A DNA stretch of 43,587 nt from Escherichia phage K1G: sequence record NC_027993.1; one strand, 5' to 3'. Positions 10,717 to 17,937 of the stretch are shown here, piece after piece (position 1 is the first letter of the stretch; each line of letters begins with the position of its first letter). A program made the position numbers and the translations under genes. The notes under the pieces were generated by a model. That model saw only the letters and a list, made by a program, of their open reading frames with translations, made no database searches and had not been told where the DNA came from.

Positions 10717-11129
10717 TGGGCTACTTTGAGGACTTAACAAAAGCGTTCGATGTTCCGCTGGTAGCCTTCGGAACCGCCAACGGCATCAAGGTCGCGCTTG
10801 AAAACATCGACGCGCCGACGTCAACCGATACGCCATATCTGGCAAGTTACATGTTACTGGCGGATACCGAGCAAGCAGATTTGTTCTTCACGGAACAACG
10901 CGCGGGTGTTTATCAGGTCGACATTAACTACGCATCGGTGAAAGGTAGCGCGCCAATCAATAAAATGGCAGACTTACTTAACACGGCATTCAAAGCAGGT
11001 AAGTCATTTTCTCGTAACGACATCTGCGCCGAGGTTCAATCGGTTAGCCTGGGGCCGCTGATTGTAGAAAACGGATGGGCCAAACGACCATTGTCAATTA
11101 ACTTTATTGCATTCACCAAGAGGCTGTGA
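10713..11129 (+). CDS. hypothetical tail-associated protein
   Basis: ATGA overlap with upstream gene. Confidence 0.55.
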   Translation: MMGYFEDLTKAFDVPLVAFGTANGIKVALENIDAPTSTDTPYLASYMLLADTEQADLFFTEQRAGVYQVDINYASVKGSAPINKMADLLNTAFKAGKSFSRNDICAEVQSVSLGPLIVENGWAKRPLSINFIAFTKRL

Positions 11130-11131
11130 AT

Positions 11132-12298
11132 ATGGCTACAACTCCTTTTAAGGGCGCGAATACTGCGCAATTCTATGTGGCAGAAACTACCCCTGGCGTA
11201 ACACCGACTAACCCGGTCTGGTCGCCATTGCGTAACACAGGTGGCGTTCCTGCCATTACCCGCGACACGCTGACCTCCAACGAACTGGACGGCAGCCGTG
11301 AAACTACGTCAATCCGCACCGGTAACAAGCAGGTTAGCGGAGAATACGCTATTGAGCTTAGCTCGAAAAGCCAGGACGACTGGCTGGCGGGTGCTTTAGG
11401 CTCTACATGGCAATCCGGTAGTTCTCTGACCGGGCTATCAATTACCGTCGCGCCTGCAGACAAGACCTTTACCCGTGCCGAAGGTAGCTTTATTTCTGAC
11501 GGCGTTGAAGTGGGCGACCTGATTGCGTTTACCGACTTAACCGGTGACAACGCAAAACCGTTTATCGTAACTGCAGTAGAGGCGCTGGTAGTGACCGGGG
11601 CGGGTATCCAGCATACCCTGACCACAGAGACAGTAACTACCGCCGCTAAGACAGGGGATAAACTGGAAACGGGAAGCCAGTGCAAGACGTTCTCTATTCT
11701 CACCTGGTACAAAGGCCAGTGCGGCGGGACTGACGCGTACACACTAACCAAAGGCGTGGAAGTTTCTGGTTTTACCATCGAACAGGCTGTTAACGCTATG
11801 GTAACTGGCAGCTTCCCGTTCATCGGTCGCAGTCAGGAGATTCTCACCACGCAGCCGTCTGGTTCTGATTTCTCCTCTGTTACGTTTGGTGACGAGCCAT
11901 TCTCCTCGGTCGATGTTTCTGTGTTCGACGGTTCTACGCCGTTGCGTTGCGACAGCCTGACCATCACCAACGACAACAGCGCGTCCGCACAGTTCGAACT
12001 CGGCAACACTAACGTAGCGTTTGTGGAGCGTAGCCGAGCAGCTAACACCTTCTCCATCTCCGGTAAGCTGTACGACATGGCGATGATTCAGAAGTTTATC
12101 AACGAGCAGCAGGTGGAGATTAACTCTATTCTGGCGGGGGTAAACGGGGCTATGTCTTTCAGTTTGAAACGTGCAGAACTTACGGCGGTTACACCTGAGA
12201 TTGGAGGACCTGAGTCAATCACTCAGTCTATTGAAGGCCAGGCTACCGGCAACCAGTACCAGTCGTCTATTGTTATTCAGCGTATCACATACGCATAA
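11132..12298 (+). CDS. major tail protein (by position)
   Basis: 389-aa Thr/Ser/Gly-rich protein upstream of chaperone and tape measure genes, followed by strong terminator; RBS AGAGG before ATG 11132. Confidence 0.55.
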   Translation: MATTPFKGANTAQFYVAETTPGVTPTNPVWSPLRNTGGVPAITRDTLTSNELDGSRETTSIRTGNKQVSGEYAIELSSKSQDDWLAGALGSTWQSGSSLTGLSITVAPADKTFTRAEGSFISDGVEVGDLIAFTDLTGDNAKPFIVTAVEALVVTGAGIQHTLTTETVTTAAKTGDKLETGSQCKTFSILTWYKGQCGGTDAYTLTKGVEVSGFTIEQAVNAMVTGSFPFIGRSQEILTTQPSGSDFSSVTFGDEPFSSVDVSVFDGSTPLRCDSLTITNDNSASAQFELGNTNVAFVERSRAANTFSISGKLYDMAMIQKFINEQQVEINSILAGVNGAMSFSLKRAELTAVTPEIGGPESITQSIEGQATGNQYQSSIVIQRITYA

Positions 12299-12302
12299 AA
12301 CT

Positions 12303-12328
12303 AAGGCCCCGTTTGGGGCCTTTTTCTT
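12303..12328 (+). terminator. rho-independent terminator (convergent junction)
   Basis: AAGGCCCC-GTTT-GGGGCCTT hairpin then TTTCTT; reverse complement of the hairpin at 24829. Confidence 0.7.
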
Positions 12329-12881
12329 ACAAACCTAATCTTAAAGCAATGCCTATAGCGTTCGATTTAACGTAACCCGGTATGATGTAGGTGTCATAAT
12401 CTTTTACACCATCAATATCGTACAGGTAACCGCGGCTGTCCCCTTCAAACGTATGGCCGTCTCTGTGCAAGCGGACGATTCTCACATCATGCCCTGCGGC
12501 AACGATAGGGGCTACTTCGCTGGCGAACCCGCCATCAGACACCACAAAAACTTCGTCGCCGTCGGGCAAGTTTCCGGCAAGATACTTACCGAAATAATCA
12601 TCACCGAATACCGGTTTAATGAATTGCTCGGAAATGGCAATCATTAACTGACGCCGAGACAACCCGTTAAGGAAACCCTCTGGCTTTTCTTTCCGCGCCC
12701 GGTCGTCGTAGCCGTCGAGAAACTCGCGGTAAGCATCCTGGCCTAACGCAGCCATAGCAATATTGAACATCGGATTCTTGAAACTGGCGACACCCTTCGC
12801 AAAGCCCATTTCTACCAGCGCCCTAGCAAGTGTGTCTTTCCCGCAGCCCGCAGGACCATTAAGAATAATTACCTTAGCCAT
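12327..12881 (-). CDS. P-loop nucleotide/polynucleotide kinase (dNMP-kinase-like or Pnk-kinase-like)
   Basis: Walker A GPAGCGKDT near N-terminus; 184 aa; start overlaps stop of upstream HAD gene. Confidence 0.75.
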   Translation of the reverse strand: MAKVIILNGPAGCGKDTLARALVEMGFAKGVASFKNPMFNIAMAALGQDAYREFLDGYDDRARKEKPEGFLNGLSRRQLMIAISEQFIKPVFGDDYFGKYLAGNLPDGDEVFVVSDGGFASEVAPIVAAGHDVRIVRLHRDGHTFEGDSRGYLYDIDGVKDYDTYIIPGYVKSNAIGIALRLGL

Positions 12882-13366
12882 TATTTATCACTCCCATGTG
12901 GTTTTAAGTGTGTAGAGTTCCCGTTACAGTCGTATTCAGTAACTGCGTGAGTGGTTATGCCGAGTTCGCGGAAATGCTTTATTACCGCTGGAGAGTCGTC
13001 GAATGCACACAAGATTCTCTCCGGCCCAATAGCACGCAACACCTCTTCTTTAATTACGATGTCTTTTCTGTTGTCGTGTTTGCTGCGCATGATTAACTGA
13101 TAAAATTCGACGCGGTGGCGCTGCAACCACATTCTGGTTTCTTTTTCCGCGTCATCACTACGGCCTGTTAAGATAATAACGGCATAGCGACGATTAAGGG
13201 CGTTACACAGTTCGATGTTATCTTTAATGGGTGCATCGTCTTTGCACGCCATGTTAAATGGTTTCCACGCCCAGGTTTCGCCGTAGTTATCTTTCGGCAG
13301 CAGGTGTAAACGATGAGTACCATCTGCCAATGTCCCGTCTAAATCGAAAATCACAATATCTTTCAT
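12881..13366 (-). CDS. HAD-superfamily phosphatase (polynucleotide 3'-phosphatase-like or 5'-nucleotidase-like)
   Basis: HAD motif I FDLDGTLAD, motif II ILTGR, motif IV AFDDSP; 161 aa. Confidence 0.75.
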   Translation of the reverse strand: MKDIVIFDLDGTLADGTHRLHLLPKDNYGETWAWKPFNMACKDDAPIKDNIELCNALNRRYAVIILTGRSDDAEKETRMWLQRHRVEFYQLIMRSKHDNRKDIVIKEEVLRAIGPERILCAFDDSPAVIKHFRELGITTHAVTEYDCNGNSTHLKPHGSDK

Positions 13367-14493
13367 CCAAGCATCTCCGGTGAAATAGTTAAACGTGCGA
13401 CCTCGCCATATTCGGCGCTATAAGTAATTACGTTTGCGCTACGGCCTGACATCCACCCGCCGCGGGAAGCATATGCATCTTTCGCCGCTAAGGTGCGATG
13501 TTGCTCAACAACCATGTTACGGCTTTCTACAATCTTTTGGTGGTGGAGATGCCCGACATGTGCGTAACTGTACTCGCTTTCGCCGAACGCTTTGCGGAAC
13601 TTGGCGATCATAACCGGTTCGATAGCATCGAAGCGTGCTTTATGGCCGTGGTGAAAGAACAGCGTAGTTTTGCCGTGTTGCACCATCTTGTAAACATCCG
13701 GCGACGTATCGACGAACACACGCGGCTCATTGTCGTACAGCGTACTAAACATCTCAGCTAACCAAATCATTCCGCTTTCGTCGTGGTTACCTTGCACAAT
13801 AAGCAAGCGAACATTTTTATGCTTAACAAGGGCCATATCAACGACACGGCGGACCATACGAATCATGTAGCGGACCAGTTTCTGATAGCGCGTGTCCGCA
13901 TCGAGAACATGACCACTTGCCGGTGTAACGGCGTCCAGACTATCGAAATGCGCAAGGTCGCCCAGCAGATTAATAACTCCTGTTCCGGCATCCGGTGCTT
14001 TCTGGAACGCTGCGTCGAACCAGCGGGAGAACAGGTCTTCCGCAATCTTCATGTCCCAGTCGTCGCCGCTCTCGTCAGCCCAGGCCAGCATACCGAGATG
14101 GAAATCAGACACAGTGTAAAGGTTGAGTAGCTTGTCGTCTCGTTTGGCGCGAACGGCTTTAACAGGTGCAACTGGTGTAATCTCCGACTTCATGCCTTCG
14201 ATTACGGCTTTCATCAATTCAACCTGACGTTCGGCATCGGTGTCGGTCTTAACCCATTGCAACTTGGTGTTGCCAAACTCATCCACCAGTGATGACGTTC
14301 CTTTAATCTTGTAGCCGTCCGGTACAAGGTAACTAACGTCACGCCCGTGGCCTACACCTTTCTTAGCCAGCTTCGCTTTACGGATACGAATAACGCGGTC
14401 GGAGATGCCGTATTTACGGGCGATGTCGATATTCTTCATACCGGCGTTCAATTCTTCCTGTAACTGTTCGTCGGTTATTTTCTTCCTGGCCAT
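13363..14493 (-). CDS. calcineurin-like metallophosphoesterase with N-terminal HTH
   Basis: motifs DFHLG, GDLAHFD, GNHDE, GHLHH in order; N-terminal segment NIDIARKYGISDRVIRIRK HTH-like; RBS GAGGAA. Confidence 0.75.
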   Translation of the reverse strand: MARKKITDEQLQEELNAGMKNIDIARKYGISDRVIRIRKAKLAKKGVGHGRDVSYLVPDGYKIKGTSSLVDEFGNTKLQWVKTDTDAERQVELMKAVIEGMKSEITPVAPVKAVRAKRDDKLLNLYTVSDFHLGMLAWADESGDDWDMKIAEDLFSRWFDAAFQKAPDAGTGVINLLGDLAHFDSLDAVTPASGHVLDADTRYQKLVRYMIRMVRRVVDMALVKHKNVRLLIVQGNHDESGMIWLAEMFSTLYDNEPRVFVDTSPDVYKMVQHGKTTLFFHHGHKARFDAIEPVMIAKFRKAFGESEYSYAHVGHLHHQKIVESRNMVVEQHRTLAAKDAYASRGGWMSGRSANVITYSAEYGEVARLTISPEMLG

Positions 14494-14530
14494 GCTTATT
14501 CCTCGTGTTTAGGATTTGTCCTATACTAGC

Positions 14531-14722
14531 TCACTTCTCTTTGACATTCGAGTTGCACGCCCAGATTAAGATAAATACCCACGGCAGCAGAACCCAACCA
14601 AGAAACAGATTAGCCATGAATATCGCTAACTTCGCTTTATGGTTACGGAAGTACGCAACCAGGAAAGGCGCGAAATAAGCGAGCAGTGCAAACAGAATTA
14701 AGGAAACTGGTAAACTGGACAT
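14531..14722 (-). CDS. small 2-TM membrane protein, superinfection-immunity-like (Imm-type motif)
   Basis: 63 aa from ATG 14722 (RBS AAGGGG; track ORF starts 15 nt upstream); motif RNHK...NLFLGWVLLPWVFILIWA recalled as typical of Imm_superinfect family. Confidence 0.5.
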   Translation of the reverse strand: MSSLPVSLILFALLAYFAPFLVAYFRNHKAKLAIFMANLFLGWVLLPWVFILIWACNSNVKEK

Positions 14723-14752
14723 TTTAAACCCCTTCATTGTTGGTGTAAGTGA

Positions 14753-14781
14753 ATAGTACCCTATTATATTGGGGTGTGCAA
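14753..14781 (-). promoter_or_regulatory. early-type promoter TTGCAC-N17-TACTAT (family 2) driving the antisense cassette
   Basis: minus-strand sequence cTTGCACaccccaatataatagggTACTATtcac nearly identical to + strand promoter at 37043; contains AATAG-N4-CTATT. Confidence 0.5.
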
Positions 14782-14889
14782 GTAATGTGATAGAATAAGT
14801 TTGCGCCTAGTGTCGCACACGAAAAGCGGGTGGTTCCCGTCTGGCGCATTTATCGTTAACCTGTAACCTCTTAACCAAAGGATTAAAGA

Positions 14890-15306
14890 ATGAAACTTTC
14901 TGATTTTTATTTCGAAGAGAAAGCACTGGTAGGCAAGAAGATGCCCATTCTGCTGCCAAACGGCGAAGACTCCGGTGAATGGCTTAACGTTGTAAGTCCC
15001 GATGCGGATGTCGCCGTTAAAGCGGGGCGTGCTTTCATTATTGCGTACCGTCGCGGGTTGGCGCGTTTCGAAGAACTGGAAAAAGCCGCCAAAGAATCCG
15101 GCGACTATACTGAATATAACCTGGCTATTAACGAACTGGCGGAAGACCTCAACCGGCAACTCGCGGCAGAAGTCGTAAACGGCTGGAGCTTTGATGAGCC
15201 TTTCTCTAAAGAAGCATTTAACAAATTGCTGGACCAGTTCAAGGCATTAGGCACACAGGTAGCAGCGTTCCATAACGCTGAGCGCAAAGCATTACAGGAA
15301 AAGTAG
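14890..15306 (+). CDS. tail assembly chaperone (G-like)
   Basis: 138-aa acidic ORF immediately upstream of tape measure gene; -1 frame ORF overlaps its 3' end. Confidence 0.55.
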   Translation: MKLSDFYFEEKALVGKKMPILLPNGEDSGEWLNVVSPDADVAVKAGRAFIIAYRRGLARFEELEKAAKESGDYTEYNLAINELAEDLNRQLAAEVVNGWSFDEPFSKEAFNKLLDQFKALGTQVAAFHNAERKALQEK

Positions 15307-15671
15307 ACGCGCTGTACAGGTTCGCCACCTATGAGTTTGTGGATAAGCATAAAATCAGAGAGTTTGATTCTATAGCCGACGGACACGAACAGGCGCTTAT
15401 CGCGATGGGTGTAATCGATAAGAAAAAACGTGCAGCGCGACGGGGTGGGCCAGAATGCCCGCCCCTTTTTATATCCACCTTCGAGACGTACTGCGACATT
15501 AAGTTTACGCGACACGTGCGCGAGGACGCTGTAGTATTGTTCGCAAGAGAATCCGTTACGTGGCAAGACCTGAAAGCCTATCTCGATGTTACGCAAAAAC
15601 AGCTTAGCCTGTTCGAGATAGACATTATCATGGGCTTAGAAGCAATCTTTGAAGGTAGAAATCATGGCTGA
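14890..15671 (+). CDS. putative G-T fusion via -1 frameshift near 15298-15304
   Basis: -1 frame is open from 15282 to 15671 and overlaps tape measure start; slippage candidate GAA AAG UAG (Lys tRNA AAG to AAA next to stop). Confidence 0.4.
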
Positions 15672-17937
15672 TACCGCTAGCTTGATCGTACGAGTATCAT
15701 CGACCGGCGTCGATAAAACCACATCACAACTGAACGGGCTTACCAAAGCCGCGGGGGCCGCCGCCGCTGCCGTTGTCAGTCTGGAAACTGCCAAACAGGT
15801 GTTCAGTGCGCTGGTGGACTCCCAGCGCAACTTCGATAAGCTGAACTCCGGCCTCATCACAATGACCGGGAGCGCCGAGAACGCTGCTAAGGCATTCAGC
15901 GTCCTGCAACAGTTCGCAAAAGAAACTCCGTATGGCCTCAATCAGGCGGTAGAGGGGTTTACCAAGCTCGTGGCGCTAGGTCTTAACCCCAGCAAAGAGG
16001 CGTTAATATCCTACGGCAACACCGCCGCAGCTATGGGCAAAGACCTTAACCAAATGATTGAGGCAGTTGCCGACGCCAGTACATTTGAATTTGAGCGCTT
16101 AAAAGAGTTCGGTATCAAGTCTTCCCAACAGGCGGATACAGTTTCGTTTACGTTCCGTGGCGTAACGACCACGGTTAAAAAGAACTCCGAAGAGATTCAG
16201 AAATACCTGCTAAATATCGGTAACACTGATTTCGCCGGAGCGATGGAGACGCGCTCGAAGACCTTAGATGGTCAGTTATCTAGCCTGGCGGACTCCTTCG
16301 ATGGTCTTGTTCTTGCGGTAGCGCAATCCGGTTTTGGCGACGCGGTAGGCGAACAAGCGGCAACAGCGGAAGATGCTATCACCGCACTCACCGACGCCAT
16401 CGCGTCCAATGAGATCTCCGCCACGCTCCAGGATTGGGTGACACTGTTCAATGAGTCGTTCAAGTTTATTTCTGATGCCCTGAATGACCTGGCATTCGAT
16501 ACCGAGGACAAATCCGTTGATATGTCCGACTCGCTGGGGGATATACCGGATGCCATCCGTGAGTGGTTGCCGGATATCCAGCAGACATTCCACGAGGTTA
16601 TTGCGTGGTTCCAGCGCATTGACGACTACGCGGTAGCGTTAGGCCAGACCCTTGCTGATGTGTTTGACCCGAGCAAAACGTCGGCGCTCACATTTAAAAA
16701 ACTGACTGCAGAGGCTGATGCCGCATACGACGCCAGTATAAAACGTGCAGAGGCCGAATCCCAAGCCATTACCGACAGGTCTAAGCAGCGTAAGAAAGAA
16801 ATTGAGGAACAGCGCAAGCAGTACGACGAGCGTAAGAAGCAAGAAATTGACTTAGCCAGCCTTGTTAATAAAAAGGGCGGAACTGGTGGGGTGGGGACAA
16901 CCGACGATAAAGCAGCAAAAGCCGCCGCCAAGAAAGCAGAGCAATTGCGGAATCAGGCGCAAGATTACCTCGACACTTTGGCCCGTCAGAACAACGACGA
17001 GTTAAAGGCTATCGACGCGCAGGAACAGCAGAAACTGGCTAAGGCAAAAGAGTTCTACAGCCAGGGCGCGTTGTCCCTGAAAGAATATGAACAAGCTAAA
17101 ACAGCTATCGTCCTCGAAGCCGGGCAAAAACGACAAGATGAACTGGATAAACGCCAGAAAGAAGCCCAGGAAAAGCAACAGAAAGGTGACGACTTCATGG
17201 CTCAGATTATGGGCCAGAACGCTACTGAGCTTGAGCTTCTCGACATCCAGGAACAGCAGAAGCTGGCGGTAGCAGATAAGTACCGTGAGCAGGGACTTAT
17301 TAGCGAGAAGCAGTATCAGGCCGCGCTTAACGCCATCAACGAGCAATACGCCACCAAGCGCGCCGACGCAACGGCAACCGCCTTCGGTAACATGGCCTCA
17401 AACATCGGGTCTGCGTTGGGTGAGGCTTCCGGCGCGTACAAAGCATTCGCTATTGTGCAGGCCACTATCGCCACGTACACCGCGGCTATTGAGGCGTACA
17501 AGTCTACGGCGGCTATCCCTGTTGTTGGCCCCTTTCTGGCTCCTGTAGCCGCTGCCGCTGCCGTTGGGGCGGGTATGGCGCAGATTTCCGCTATCAGGTC
17601 AGCACGTGAACAGGGCGGTCAGTTATCCGCGGGGCAGGCTTCTACTATCGCTGAACGTGGTAAACCCGAAGTTATCATGCCCGCTGGCGCATCGCGTGTG
17701 CGCACTGCACAGCAGATGAAAGAAATTATGGGGCAAAACGGGTCTTCCTCCGGCCCATCTAATGTTACCATTGTAAATAATACATCGAGTCAGATTGGCA
17801 ACGTATCCACCGAGCAGGATGATGAAGGCCGTCTGCGTATCATCATAGAAGAGCAAGTTGCTGCATCTTTGCAGAACAGCAACAGTAAGATTAGCAAGGC
17901 CCGCAAGGCCACAAGAAACGCGCCGGGGTTTAAATAA
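15649..17937 (+). CDS. tail tape measure protein
   Basis: 762 aa, Ala/Gln/Glu/Lys-rich coiled-coil, located after G/GT. Confidence 0.8.
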   Translation: MKVEIMADTASLIVRVSSTGVDKTTSQLNGLTKAAGAAAAAVVSLETAKQVFSALVDSQRNFDKLNSGLITMTGSAENAAKAFSVLQQFAKETPYGLNQAVEGFTKLVALGLNPSKEALISYGNTAAAMGKDLNQMIEAVADASTFEFERLKEFGIKSSQQADTVSFTFRGVTTTVKKNSEEIQKYLLNIGNTDFAGAMETRSKTLDGQLSSLADSFDGLVLAVAQSGFGDAVGEQAATAEDAITALTDAIASNEISATLQDWVTLFNESFKFISDALNDLAFDTEDKSVDMSDSLGDIPDAIREWLPDIQQTFHEVIAWFQRIDDYAVALGQTLADVFDPSKTSALTFKKLTAEADAAYDASIKRAEAESQAITDRSKQRKKEIEEQRKQYDERKKQEIDLASLVNKKGGTGGVGTTDDKAAKAAAKKAEQLRNQAQDYLDTLARQNNDELKAIDAQEQQKLAKAKEFYSQGALSLKEYEQAKTAIVLEAGQKRQDELDKRQKEAQEKQQKGDDFMAQIMGQNATELELLDIQEQQKLAVADKYREQGLISEKQYQAALNAINEQYATKRADATATAFGNMASNIGSALGEASGAYKAFAIVQATIATYTAAIEAYKSTAAIPVVGPFLAPVAAAAAVGAGMAQISAIRSAREQGGQLSAGQASTIAERGKPEVIMPAGASRVRTAQQMKEIMGQNGSSSGPSNVTIVNNTSSQIGNVSTEQDDEGRLRIIIEEQVAASLQNSNSKISKARKATRNAPGFK

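What the first reader, a model, noticed from the sequence alone, without database searches (positions are those of the whole stretch)
15282..15306. Probable -1 programmed frameshift joining the tail chaperone to a downstream extension (G/GT)
The -1 frame is open from 15282 through 15671 and overlaps the tape-measure start, the conserved G/GT arrangement of siphoviruses. There is no canonical X_XXY_YYZ heptamer; the only candidate is GAA_AAG_UAG, where Lys-tRNA could slip from AAG to AAA next to the stop codon.
Basis: partly seen in the sequence, partly recalled or inferred. Interest (0 to 1): 0.35.

Follow-up and report, generated by a model that had tools for sequence, protein, structure and literature searches.

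The report
Tail chaperone G/GT frameshift site
This is the ordinary, already annotated -1 ribosomal frameshift that makes the long form of a phage tail-assembly chaperone, unusual only in that the slip occurs on a four-base A_AAG motif pressed against the stop codon rather than on a classic seven-base site.

Summary
The window is a Kagunavirus, almost certainly Escherichia phage K1G. ORF 14890-15306 (138 aa) is a tail assembly chaperone. The -1 frame is open from 15282 to 15671 and ends 8 nt inside the tape-measure gene (ATG 15664).

Slipping tRNA-Lys from AAG (15301-15303) to AAA (15300-15302) gives a 260-aa, 29.6-kDa fusion. That sequence is identical to the deposited K1G protein ADA82267.1 / YP_009168804.1, so the frameshift is already in public annotation.

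In 74 distinct relatives, with chaperone identity down to 43%, the only invariant feature of the overlap is NNA_AAG followed at once by a stop codon:
- The -1 overlap shrinks to 10 nt in some relatives.
- The extension is conserved from its first codon.
- The first possible start codon lies anywhere from 0 to 324 nt downstream.
- GTG 15339 is GTT in close relatives.

No conserved downstream RNA structure or upstream Shine-Dalgarno (SD) sequence was found. The adjacent stop codon is therefore the likely stimulator ("shifty stop").

Two side observations remain unexplained:
- An invariant GCGYTG lies 5 nt after the site.
- A terminator-like hairpin sits inside the extension ORF.

Novelty is low. 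No frameshift product or efficiency has been measured.

The parts
14890..15306 (+). G-type tail assembly chaperone gene (138 aa, 15.5 kDa), 0-frame product ending ...ALQEK-TAG
15282..15306 (+). Overlap in which both the 0 frame and the -1 frame are open (25 nt).
   Evidence: The overlap length varies from 10 to 208 nt among relatives.
15300..15303 (+). Slip site A_AAG. tRNA-Lys re-pairs from AAG (15301-15303) to AAA (15300-15302).
   Evidence: The motif is invariant in 76 of 76 unique junctions. This includes the third position of the preceding codon, although that residue varies among E, A, V, K, G and S.
15304..15306 (+). 0-frame stop codon TAG directly abutting the slip site; proposed pause element ('shifty stop')
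   Evidence: A stop codon sits at this exact position in 74 of 74 distinct relatives (TAG 53, TAA 20, TGA 1). It is the only TAG stop among 26 large ORFs of the window.
15303..15671 (+). T extension read in the -1 frame after the slip (122 codons, VDALYRFATYEF...EGRNHG, then TGA 15669-15671). The GT product is join(14890..15303,15303..15671).
   Evidence: Coordinates and sequence are. Family hits are Pfam Phage_TAC_18 and PHROG 15027 positions 139-259. The fusion is identical to ADA82267.1 / YP_009168804.1. The extension is 120-122 aa long in all relatives and conserved from its first codon.
15339..15341 (+). GTG that gene callers use as the start of a 110-aa ORF; here it is an internal Val codon of T
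   Evidence: There is no SD sequence upstream. The codon is GTT in three close relatives that keep the same YEFVDKH peptide.
15309..15314 (+). Invariant GCGCTG (GCG YTG) 5 nt after the slip tetramer; role unknown
   Evidence: Entropy is zero at both third codon positions in 76 sequences, whereas another conserved Ala five codons later uses all four codons. No stem-loop accounts for it.
15442..15474 (+). Terminator-like hairpin (9 bp, 8 of them G-C, loop of 6) plus a T-run, inside the T ORF
   Evidence: Found. It folds at -20.6 kcal/mol with z = -1.9. The hairpin recurs in many relatives with compensatory changes. Its function is untested.
15664..17937 (+). Tape measure protein gene, overlapping the end of T by 8 nt
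   Evidence: Pfam TMP_3, below the family cut-off. Relatives are annotated as tape measure protein.
11126..12298 (+). Major tail tube protein gene, the expected upstream partner of G/GT. Here it is separated from G by a 2.6-kb stretch, most of it a minus-strand gene module.
   Evidence: Pfam Phage_tube_2 at E=5e-41.

Best explanation
Ribosomes translating the chaperone gene (14890-15306) reach the last sense codon, AAG (Lys138), with the stop codon TAG in the A site. A minority slip back one base. The single host tRNA-Lys (anticodon UUU) re-pairs from AAG to the overlapping AAA (15300-15302). Decoding then resumes at GTA (15303-15305) in the -1 frame and adds 122 residues up to TGA 15669-15671.

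The outcome is two proteins from one start codon. One is abundant G (138 aa). The other is rare GT (260 aa, 29.6 kDa), whose T part would recruit the tail tube protein onto the tape-measure/chaperone complex, as in lambda.

The site is a bare A_AAG tetramer. Slow release-factor decoding of the adjacent stop codon is the most likely stimulator, because no RNA structure or SD element is conserved.

Shown here: the frame layout, the coding nature and conservation of T, the position of the slip, and the identity of the fusion to the deposited protein. Inferred: that slippage happens at all, its timing (P-site slip at the stop), its efficiency, and the functions of G and T.
For: 1. Frame anatomy.

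2. Both halves are tail-assembly-chaperone families. Pfam TAC_4 and TAC_18 match the two halves. PHROG 15027, a 259-position profile, is matched by G over positions 1-138 and by T over positions 139-259.

3. The predicted fusion equals deposited K1G, K1ind2 and fFiEco03 proteins, and joined CDS features exist in related records.

4. In 74 distinct G+T pairs, all end NNA AAG stop. The penultimate codon is GAA, GCA, GTA, AAA, GGA or TCA. That is six different amino acids, always with an A-ending codon. The product of this phage's own A-ending codon fractions for those residues is 3e-4.

5. The -1 overlap is only 10 nt in L049 and L051, which confines the shift to C_GCA_AAG.

6. T is 120-122 aa everywhere and conserved from codon 1 (V-x-A-L-Y-x-F-A). 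The first -1-frame start codon lies at +0 to +324 nt. GTG 15339 is GTT in close relatives.

7. The same T N-terminal segment (..L..YA..EF) is reached in distant relatives by a canonical T_TTT_TTC heptamer, or by CGA_AAG in Tlacuache. This shows that the segment is frameshift-accessed across the wider family.

8. Literature supports the motif. Z_ZZN is the minimal -1 motif. A_AAG is the most efficient tetramer in E. coli, which has a single tRNA-Lys for AAA and AAG (PMC5009743; PMC4066793). Ribosomes stalled at stop codons undergo recoding by P-site re-pairing (PMC6815119). A stop-adjacent slip site (GGGAAAC-TGA) has been predicted for phage KL1 gp18/gp19 (PMC3483164).

9. The phage carries no tRNA genes that could alter Lys decoding.
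Against: - There is no protein, ribosome-profiling or reporter evidence for this phage or any close relative. The public 'frameshift' CDS features are predictions.
- In E. coli reporters, tetramers without a stimulator are close to background (0.147% against 0.112%; PMC4066793).
- No stimulatory structure was found here, so the efficiency could be very low unless the stop codon or the invariant GCGYTG helps.
- The stop codon's exact position could be conserved simply because it terminates G.
- The G and T bases of A_AAG_T are also constrained by the Val codon of T.
- Many public records annotate T as a separate gene.
Confidence: 0.85

Rival explanations
1. The site and product are the same, but the timing differs. 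Lys-tRNA slips while in the A site or during translocation, the classical tetramer mechanism of IS3/IS1222. It would be helped by an unrecognised 3' element such as the invariant GCGYUG 5 nt downstream. On this view the adjacent stop codon is only the G terminator and not a stimulator.
For: GCG YTG is invariant in 76 sequences, including two synonymous positions. It sits at the 5-nt spacing typical of 3' stimulators. In some relatives the site is a full heptamer suited to two-tRNA slippage: G_GGA_AAG in L019 and A_AAA_AAG in L075 and L076. Characterised A_AAG sites use a 3' pseudoknot (PMC4066793).
Against: No conserved stem-loop or pseudoknot begins at GCGYUG. RNAalifold gives -0.27 kcal/mol on 27 representatives with a mean z of +0.31, and searches agree. 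The stop codon is immediately adjacent in 74 of 74 relatives and takes three different forms. In distant relatives that use a strong heptamer, the stop is 18-54 nt away.
Confidence: 0.25
2. There is no frameshift. The downstream ORF is a separate gene translated from its own start (GTG 15339 or ATG 15405), possibly by termination-reinitiation after TAG 15304-15306.
For: Gene callers and many GenBank records annotate a separate ORF of 88-119 aa. ATG 15405 is conserved as a Met codon in most relatives. The Pfam TAC_18 match begins near that Met.
Against: - The 34 codons between the slip site and ATG 15405 are strongly conserved as protein in all relatives.
- GTG 15339 is GTT in close relatives and has no SD sequence.
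- The first available start codon lies at +171, +282 and +324 nt in L009/L077, L072 and L090.
- The Met is Ile in SP-031.
- The annotated starts of the separate ORF differ from record to record.
Confidence: 0.05
3. Transcriptional slippage: RNA polymerase adds or drops an A in the A-run, so a fraction of mRNAs encode the fusion in a single frame.
For: A run of four A residues lies at 15299-15302.
Against: The run is only 4 nt in the window. It is only 3 nt in relatives with GCA AAG, GTA AAG or TCA AAG. From established knowledge, productive transcriptional slippage in bacteria needs runs of roughly 7-9 or more. Conservation is of A_AAG in a fixed frame next to a stop codon, which points to a translational signal.
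Confidence: 0.02
4. Stop-codon readthrough or a +1 shift extends G instead.
For: TAG is the leakiest stop codon and is followed by A.
Against: In the 0 frame only 22 further codons follow TAG before the next stop. That tail is not conserved, because the sequence is constrained in the -1 frame. The +1 frame is closed in the distant relatives examined.
Confidence: 0.02

Closest known systems
Lambda gpG/gpGT and the conserved G/GT frameshift of long-tailed phages (Levin et al. 1993; Xu, Hendrix & Duda 2004, as cited in PMC5009743)
   Same: - Two overlapping ORFs lie directly upstream of the tape-measure gene.
- The second ORF is in the -1 frame, has no start of its own, and ends at or overlaps the tape-measure start.
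- The short product is a TAC-fold protein.
- The shift lies near the 3' end of G, with no RNA structure needed.
   Different: - Lambda slips on the heptamer G_GGA_AAG several codons before the G stop. Here the site is a bare tetramer, A_AAG, in G_GAA_AAG, and the stop codon follows immediately.
- G is separated from the tail tube gene by a 2.6-kb stretch, most of it a minus-strand module.
- There is no sequence similarity to lambda G or T (different Pfam families).
Annotated GT fusions of Kagunavirus phages K1G, K1ind1-3, fTaEco03, fKuEco01, fFiEco03 and fPoEco01 (GenBank/RefSeq; PHROG 15027)
   Same: The protein is identical (ADA82267.1 / YP_009168804.1). The joined CDS spans the same 782 nt.
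   Different: Nothing differs at the sequence level. The records give a prediction without experimental support. In the papers I could search, no discussion of the slip motif was found.
A_AAG tetranucleotide/hexanucleotide -1 sites: IS3, IS1222 (G_CGA_AAG), B. subtilis cdd (A_CGA_AAG) (PMC5009743, PMC4066793)
   Same: A single-tRNA slip of tRNA-Lys from AAG to AAA. The preceding codon cannot re-pair well in the -1 frame. The relative Tlacuache even has C_CGA_AAG.
   Different: Those sites rely on a 3' pseudoknot or hairpin and/or an upstream SD-like sequence. None is detectable here. Instead the 0-frame stop codon is immediately adjacent.
'Shifty stop' frameshifting (Weiss et al. 1987; prfB +1 at CUU_UGA; as reviewed in PMC5009743 and PMC6815119)
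   Same: The slip-prone codon is in the P site, a slowly decoded stop codon is in the A site, and the stop's position is conserved.
   Different: prfB shifts +1 and uses a closely spaced upstream SD sequence. Here the shift is -1 and no SD sequence is conserved. A role for the stop codon is inferred from conservation only.
Burkholderia phage KL1 gp18/gp19 (142/264 aa), predicted slip GGGAAAC immediately upstream of the TGA stop (PMC3483164)
   Same: The protein sizes are nearly the same, the slip site abuts the stop codon, and the neighbouring tail protein is reported as similar to those of K1G, K1H and K1ind phages.
   Different: KL1 has a canonical heptamer, and an extra tail gene lies between the pair and the tape-measure gene. 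Homology of its chaperone to this one was not tested here.

Membership tests
Phage G/GT tail assembly chaperone pair (lambda-type, Xu et al. 2004) | Two overlapping ORFs immediately upstream of the tape measure gene, downstream of the major tail protein gene | tested here: met
   G spans 14890-15306, T spans 15303-15671, and the tape-measure ATG is at 15664. The tail tube gene lies upstream at 11126-12298, but minus-strand genes intervene at 12327-14737.
Phage G/GT tail assembly chaperone pair (lambda-type, Xu et al. 2004) | The second ORF is in the -1 frame relative to the first and lacks a conserved start codon or ribosome-binding site of its own | tested here: met
   The frames were checked. 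The first -1-frame start codon lies at +0 to +324 nt across 74 relatives. GTG 15339 becomes GTT in close relatives.
Phage G/GT tail assembly chaperone pair (lambda-type, Xu et al. 2004) | Canonical X_XXY_YYZ slippery heptamer in the overlap | tested here: not met
   The window has G_GAA_AAG, so only the A_AAG tetramer is slippery. Full heptamers occur at the same place only in L019 (G_GGA_AAG) and in L075 and L076 (A_AAA_AAG). This feature is typical of the family rather than obligatory.
Phage G/GT tail assembly chaperone pair (lambda-type, Xu et al. 2004) | The short product has the tail-assembly-chaperone (TAC) fold or belongs to a TAC sequence family | tested here: met
Phage G/GT tail assembly chaperone pair (lambda-type, Xu et al. 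2004) | The fusion protein GT is actually made, at a few per cent of G, and both forms are required for tail assembly | not testable with these tools
   This needs a western blot or mass spectrometry, plus genetics. No such data were found in the searchable literature.
Z_ZZN tetranucleotide -1 frameshift sites (A_AAG class; IS3/IS1222/cdd) | A_AAG in the 0 frame, so that tRNA-Lys can re-pair cognately to AAA | tested here: met
   The motif is at 15300-15303 and is invariant in 76 of 76 junctions. E. coli has a single tRNA-Lys for AAA and AAG (PMC5009743). The phage has no tRNA genes.
Z_ZZN tetranucleotide -1 frameshift sites (A_AAG class; IS3/IS1222/cdd) | A flanking stimulator: a 3' hairpin or pseudoknot and/or an SD-like sequence about 10 nt upstream | tested here: not met
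   The window fold gives z = -0.7. Alignment folding gives -1.07 and -0.27 kcal/mol. No conserved upstream SD sequence appears in the alignment.
'Shifty stop' recoding sites | A stop codon immediately 3' of the slip-prone codon | tested here: met
   TAG is at 15304-15306. A stop codon is adjacent in 74 of 74 relatives (TAG 53, TAA 20, TGA 1). The base after the stop is A or C in 72 of 74.
'Shifty stop' recoding sites | Frameshift level depends on termination efficiency (release-factor level, stop-codon context) | not testable with these tools
   This requires reporter assays with stop-to-sense substitutions and modulation of RF1.

The most novel reading that the evidence does not exclude
The Guernseyvirinae-type chaperone genes may use a structure-free frameshift cassette: A_AAG plus the stop codon plus the invariant GCGYUG lying in the mRNA entry channel. 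This could be coupled to a conserved intrinsic-terminator-like hairpin inside the rarely translated T ORF (15442-15474). Together, translation and transcription would then set the G : GT : tape-measure ratio. Neither the GCGYUG element nor the embedded terminator appeared in the papers I could search.
Probability: 0.2. Interest if true: 0.5.

Novelty: already known. Interest (0 to 1): 0.2.

Why it matters
For genome annotation, T (15303-15671) should not be called as a separate 110-aa or 88-aa gene. Many public records of related phages still do so, with inconsistent starts.

For recoding biology, this clade is a clean natural example of about 75 diverged sequences. A bare A_AAG tetramer abutting a stop codon, with no RNA structure, has been kept by selection at the homologous protein position. 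More distant relatives use T_TTT_TTC or CGA_AAG there instead.

The clade is also a convenient E. coli system for measuring how much a stop codon alone can stimulate a -1 slip. Beyond that, the feature is the expected tail-chaperone frameshift.

Tried and rejected
- **Downstream stimulatory structure.** The single-sequence fold of 15304-15400 gave z = -0.7. RNAalifold gave -1.07 kcal/mol on 11 sequences and -0.27 kcal/mol on 27 representatives, with mean z +0.31 for the 60 nt after the stop. Nothing was found.
- **Upstream SD-like stimulator.** The AGGA in CAGGAAAAG is not conserved; relatives have TCGGAAAAG, TCGGCAAAG or AACGCAAAG. It is also too close to the site for a -1 stimulator.
- **Tandem (two-tRNA) slippage on G_GAA_AAG.** Rejected as the conserved mechanism, because the P-site codon varies (GCA, GTA, TCA).
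- **Independent start at GTG 15339 or ATG 15405.** Rejected.
- **The search for homologous proteins with the fusion.** It returned only 4 weak or partial hits and did not help locate annotated joins. The exact-sequence look-up did.
- **Literature searches.** Searches for Kagunavirus, Jerseyvirus or K1ind with 'frameshift' found no paper that discusses this site. Xu et al. 2004 is not held in the library.
- **GE_vB_HIL record (L092).** It has broken frames and is marked UNVERIFIED, so it was not used.

Full report
**What the window is.** A 2-kb stretch around the finding is 93-97% identical to about 40 Kagunavirus (Guernseyvirinae) E. coli siphophages. The 260-aa fusion protein I derived is identical to ADA82267.1 / YP_009168804.1, 'tail assembly chaperone [Escherichia phage K1G]'. 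The longest contig holding that protein is 43,587 bp, the length of the window. The window is therefore almost certainly phage K1G itself.

**Checking the observation.**
- ORF 14890-15306 encodes 138 aa ending ...ALQEK, with codons CAG GAA AAG TAG.
- In the -1 frame, a TGA at 15279-15281 is followed by 129 open codons up to TGA 15669-15671.
- The tape-measure ATG at 15664 overlaps that end by 8 nt.
- The 25-nt overlap contains no X_XXY_YYZ heptamer. A_AAG (15300-15303) is its only Z_ZZN motif, and it touches the stop codon.
- The octamer AAAAGTAG is not rare by itself: one occurrence against 1.34 expected. In-frame A_AAG occurs 32 times in the phage's genes. The case therefore rests on coding content and conservation, not on the motif.

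**What the two ORFs are.**
- The 138-aa protein matches Pfam Phage_TAC_4 above its cut-off. The -1 ORF matches Phage_TAC_18 at E=1e-18.
- PHROG 15027, a 259-position 'tail assembly chaperone' profile, is matched by G over positions 1-138 and by the post-slip T segment over positions 139-259. That family was evidently built from fused proteins.
- Foldseek and a sequence search of the PDB gave nothing significant.
- The tail tube gene (Phage_tube_2, 11126-12298) lies upstream. It is separated from G by a minus-strand module of kinase, HAD phosphatase, metallophosphoesterase and superinfection-immunity genes.

**Where the shift happens.** I collected 91 loci from GenBank phages and IMG/VR. They give 74 distinct G+T pairs, with G identity to the window down to 43%.
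- All 74 end NNA AAG stop. The penultimate codon is GAA (50), GCA (16), GTA (4), AAA (2), GGA (1) or TCA (1). That is six different amino acids, always with the A-ending codon. Using this phage's own codon usage, the product of those A-ending fractions is 3e-4.
- The last codon is AAG in 74 of 74, although AAA and AAG are used about equally in the phage.
- The stop is TAG (53), TAA (20) or TGA (1).
- Per-column entropy over 76 unique junctions is zero for A AAG T, while neighbouring third codon positions carry 1-2 bits.
- The -1 overlap varies from 10 to 208 nt. In L049 and L051, a -1-frame stop lies 7 nt before the G stop, which confines the shift to C_GCA_AAG.

**Conservation of T.** After the slip, the T segment is 120-122 aa in every relative. 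It is conserved from its first codon (V-x-A-L-Y-x-F-A-x-W/Y-x-F...), whereas the -1-frame translation upstream of the slip is not conserved.

**Independent initiation is excluded.**
- The first ATG, GTG or TTG in the -1 frame after the slip lies at +0, 9, 12, 30, 36, 84, 93, 96, 102, 141, 150, 171, 282 or 324 nt in different relatives.
- The window's GTG 15339 has no SD sequence. It is the synonymous GTT in three K1ind1-like relatives that keep the peptide YEFVDKH.
- Public records that annotate T as a separate gene give it inconsistent starts, and gene callers produce 110-, 119- or 88-aa versions.
- The Pfam TAC_18 match begins near the internal conserved Met. This suggests the family was built from such truncated calls.

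**The wider family.** More distant G homologues (27-32% identity: Queuovirinae, Knuthellervirus, Pamexvirus, Serratia phage Tlacuache) also have a -1 ORF running to the tape-measure start.
- That ORF carries the homologous N-terminal T motif (..L..YA..EF.L...PKGSK).
- They reach it through a canonical T_TTT_TTC heptamer 18-54 nt before the G stop, or through C_CGA_AAG in Tlacuache.
- The T segment is thus frameshift-accessed across the family. What is specific to the Guernseyvirinae-like clade is the A_AAG tetramer pressed against the stop.
- Within that clade, two lineages have turned the site into a full heptamer at the same position: G_GGA_AAG in L019 (44,851 bp, the size of Raoultella phage RP180) and A_AAA_AAG in L075 and L076.

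**Mechanism.** From the literature:
- Z_ZZN is the minimal -1 motif. A_AAG is by far the best tetramer in E. coli, up to 5.6% with the IS3 pseudoknot. Tetramers without a stimulator are near background, at 0.147% against 0.112% (PMC4066793).
- E. coli has one tRNA-Lys for AAA and AAG (PMC5009743).
- A_AAG is used by IS1222 and occurs in B. subtilis cdd.

The phage encodes no tRNA. I found no conserved downstream structure and no conserved upstream SD sequence.

The one invariant contextual feature is the immediately adjacent stop codon, followed by A or C in 72 of 74 relatives. The most likely model is therefore a P-site slip of peptidyl-tRNA-Lys while the A site waits for a release factor, the 'shifty stop' of Weiss et al. 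1987 as reviewed in PMC5009743. PMC6815119 notes that ribosomes stalled at stop codons undergo such re-pairing events.

This step is inferred. The stop codon could be conserved simply as the terminator of G. An A-site or translocation slip helped by an unknown element remains possible.

Transcriptional slippage is unlikely, because the A-run is only 3-4 nt. Readthrough is unlikely, because only 22 unconserved 0-frame codons follow the stop.

**Comparison with what is known.** Functionally this is the lambda G/GT arrangement (Levin 1993 and Xu 2004, as cited in PMC5009743).
- It differs in using a tetramer instead of a heptamer.
- The stop abuts the site.
- The tube gene is displaced.
- The frameshifted CDS is already deposited for K1G, K1ind1-3, fTaEco03, fKuEco01, fFiEco03 and fPoEco01.
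- A stop-adjacent slip site has been predicted in phage KL1 (PMC3483164).

The finding is therefore already known as an annotation. I found no paper that discusses the motif in this clade and no experimental proof.

**Two things not explained.**
- GCG YTG (window 15309-15314), 5 nt after the tetramer, is invariant in 76 sequences, including two synonymous positions. Another conserved Ala five codons later uses all four codons. No pairing partner is conserved.
- A terminator-like hairpin with a U-run lies inside the T ORF at 15442-15474 (-20.6 kcal/mol, z = -1.9). It recurs in many diverged relatives with compensatory, amino-acid-changing substitutions at the stem base: GAGGGG/CCCCUC, AAGGGG/CCCCUU and ACGGGG/CCCCGU.
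  - The covariation count exceeds all 500 shuffles (0.230 against 0.124). One slid control (+3) is as high, so this is suggestive only.
  - The hairpin is absent from Jerseyvirus-type and SP-031-type relatives.
  - Most ribosomes stop at 15306, so this stretch is largely untranslated. A partial terminator or 3'-end stabiliser there could raise G relative to GT and the tape-measure protein. This is speculation.

**Verdict.** The feature is an ordinary, already annotated tail-chaperone frameshift with a mildly unusual, well-conserved slip-site design. Interest is low (0.2). My confidence that a -1 frameshift at A_AAG makes GT is 0.85. Confidence that the stop codon is the stimulator is lower, about 0.6.

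Noticed in passing
window 15442-15474 (+): An intrinsic-terminator-like hairpin (GGGGTGGGC-CAGAAT-GCCCGCCCC, then TTTTTATAT) lies inside the T ORF, where it encodes GGPECPPLF. An equivalent hairpin with a U-run recurs in many diverged relatives, with compensatory changes at the stem base. It is absent in Jerseyvirus-type and SP-031-type relatives. It could be a partial terminator or an mRNA 3'-end stabiliser in a stretch that few ribosomes translate.
   Followed up: partly
window 15309-15314 (+): GCG YTG, 5 nt after the slip tetramer, is invariant in 76 unique junction sequences, including two synonymous third positions. No conserved pairing partner was found.
   Followed up: partly
window 15304-15306: The chaperone gene is the only one of 26 large ORFs in the window that ends in TAG. 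All the others end in TAA or TGA.
   Followed up: no
window 12327-14737 (-): A minus-strand module is inserted between the tail tube gene and the chaperone gene, breaking the usual tube-G-T-tape measure synteny. It comprises an AAA-type kinase, a PNKP-like HAD phosphatase, a metallophosphoesterase and a small superinfection-immunity gene. The intergenic region 14738-14889 must hold divergent promoters.
   Followed up: no
L019 1501-1920; L075 and L076 1501-1920: At the same position as the window's G_GAA_AAG, some relatives carry full canonical heptamers, still followed directly by TAG. They are G_GGA_AAG in L019 (a 44,851-bp contig, the size of Raoultella phage RP180) and A_AAA_AAG in two metagenomic relatives.
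   Followed up: partly
L093-L097 (Alteromonas R7M, Vibrio 1.207.B, Pseudomonas PMBT14, Serratia Tlacuache, Pseudomonas phiH2): Distant homologues of the chaperone reach a homologous T segment through T_TTT_TTC heptamers 18-54 nt before the G stop, or through C_CGA_AAG in Tlacuache. None of these five records annotates the frameshift.
   Followed up: partly
L003, L005-L011 (Ent3, Tsm2, Bas70, Eta, VLCpiS11a, SP-031, CR01, T102): Public records of related phages annotate the T ORF as a separate gene, with starts that differ from record to record (6 to 171 nt after the G stop, or overlapping it). The Pfam Phage_TAC_18 match begins only at the internal conserved Met. Both look like consequences of missing the frameshift.
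   Followed up: partly
L092 (MG969408.1 GE_vB_HIL) 901-1311: The chaperone gene of this UNVERIFIED record is broken into different frames after 21 codons, probably by sequencing errors. It was excluded from the comparison.
   Followed up: no
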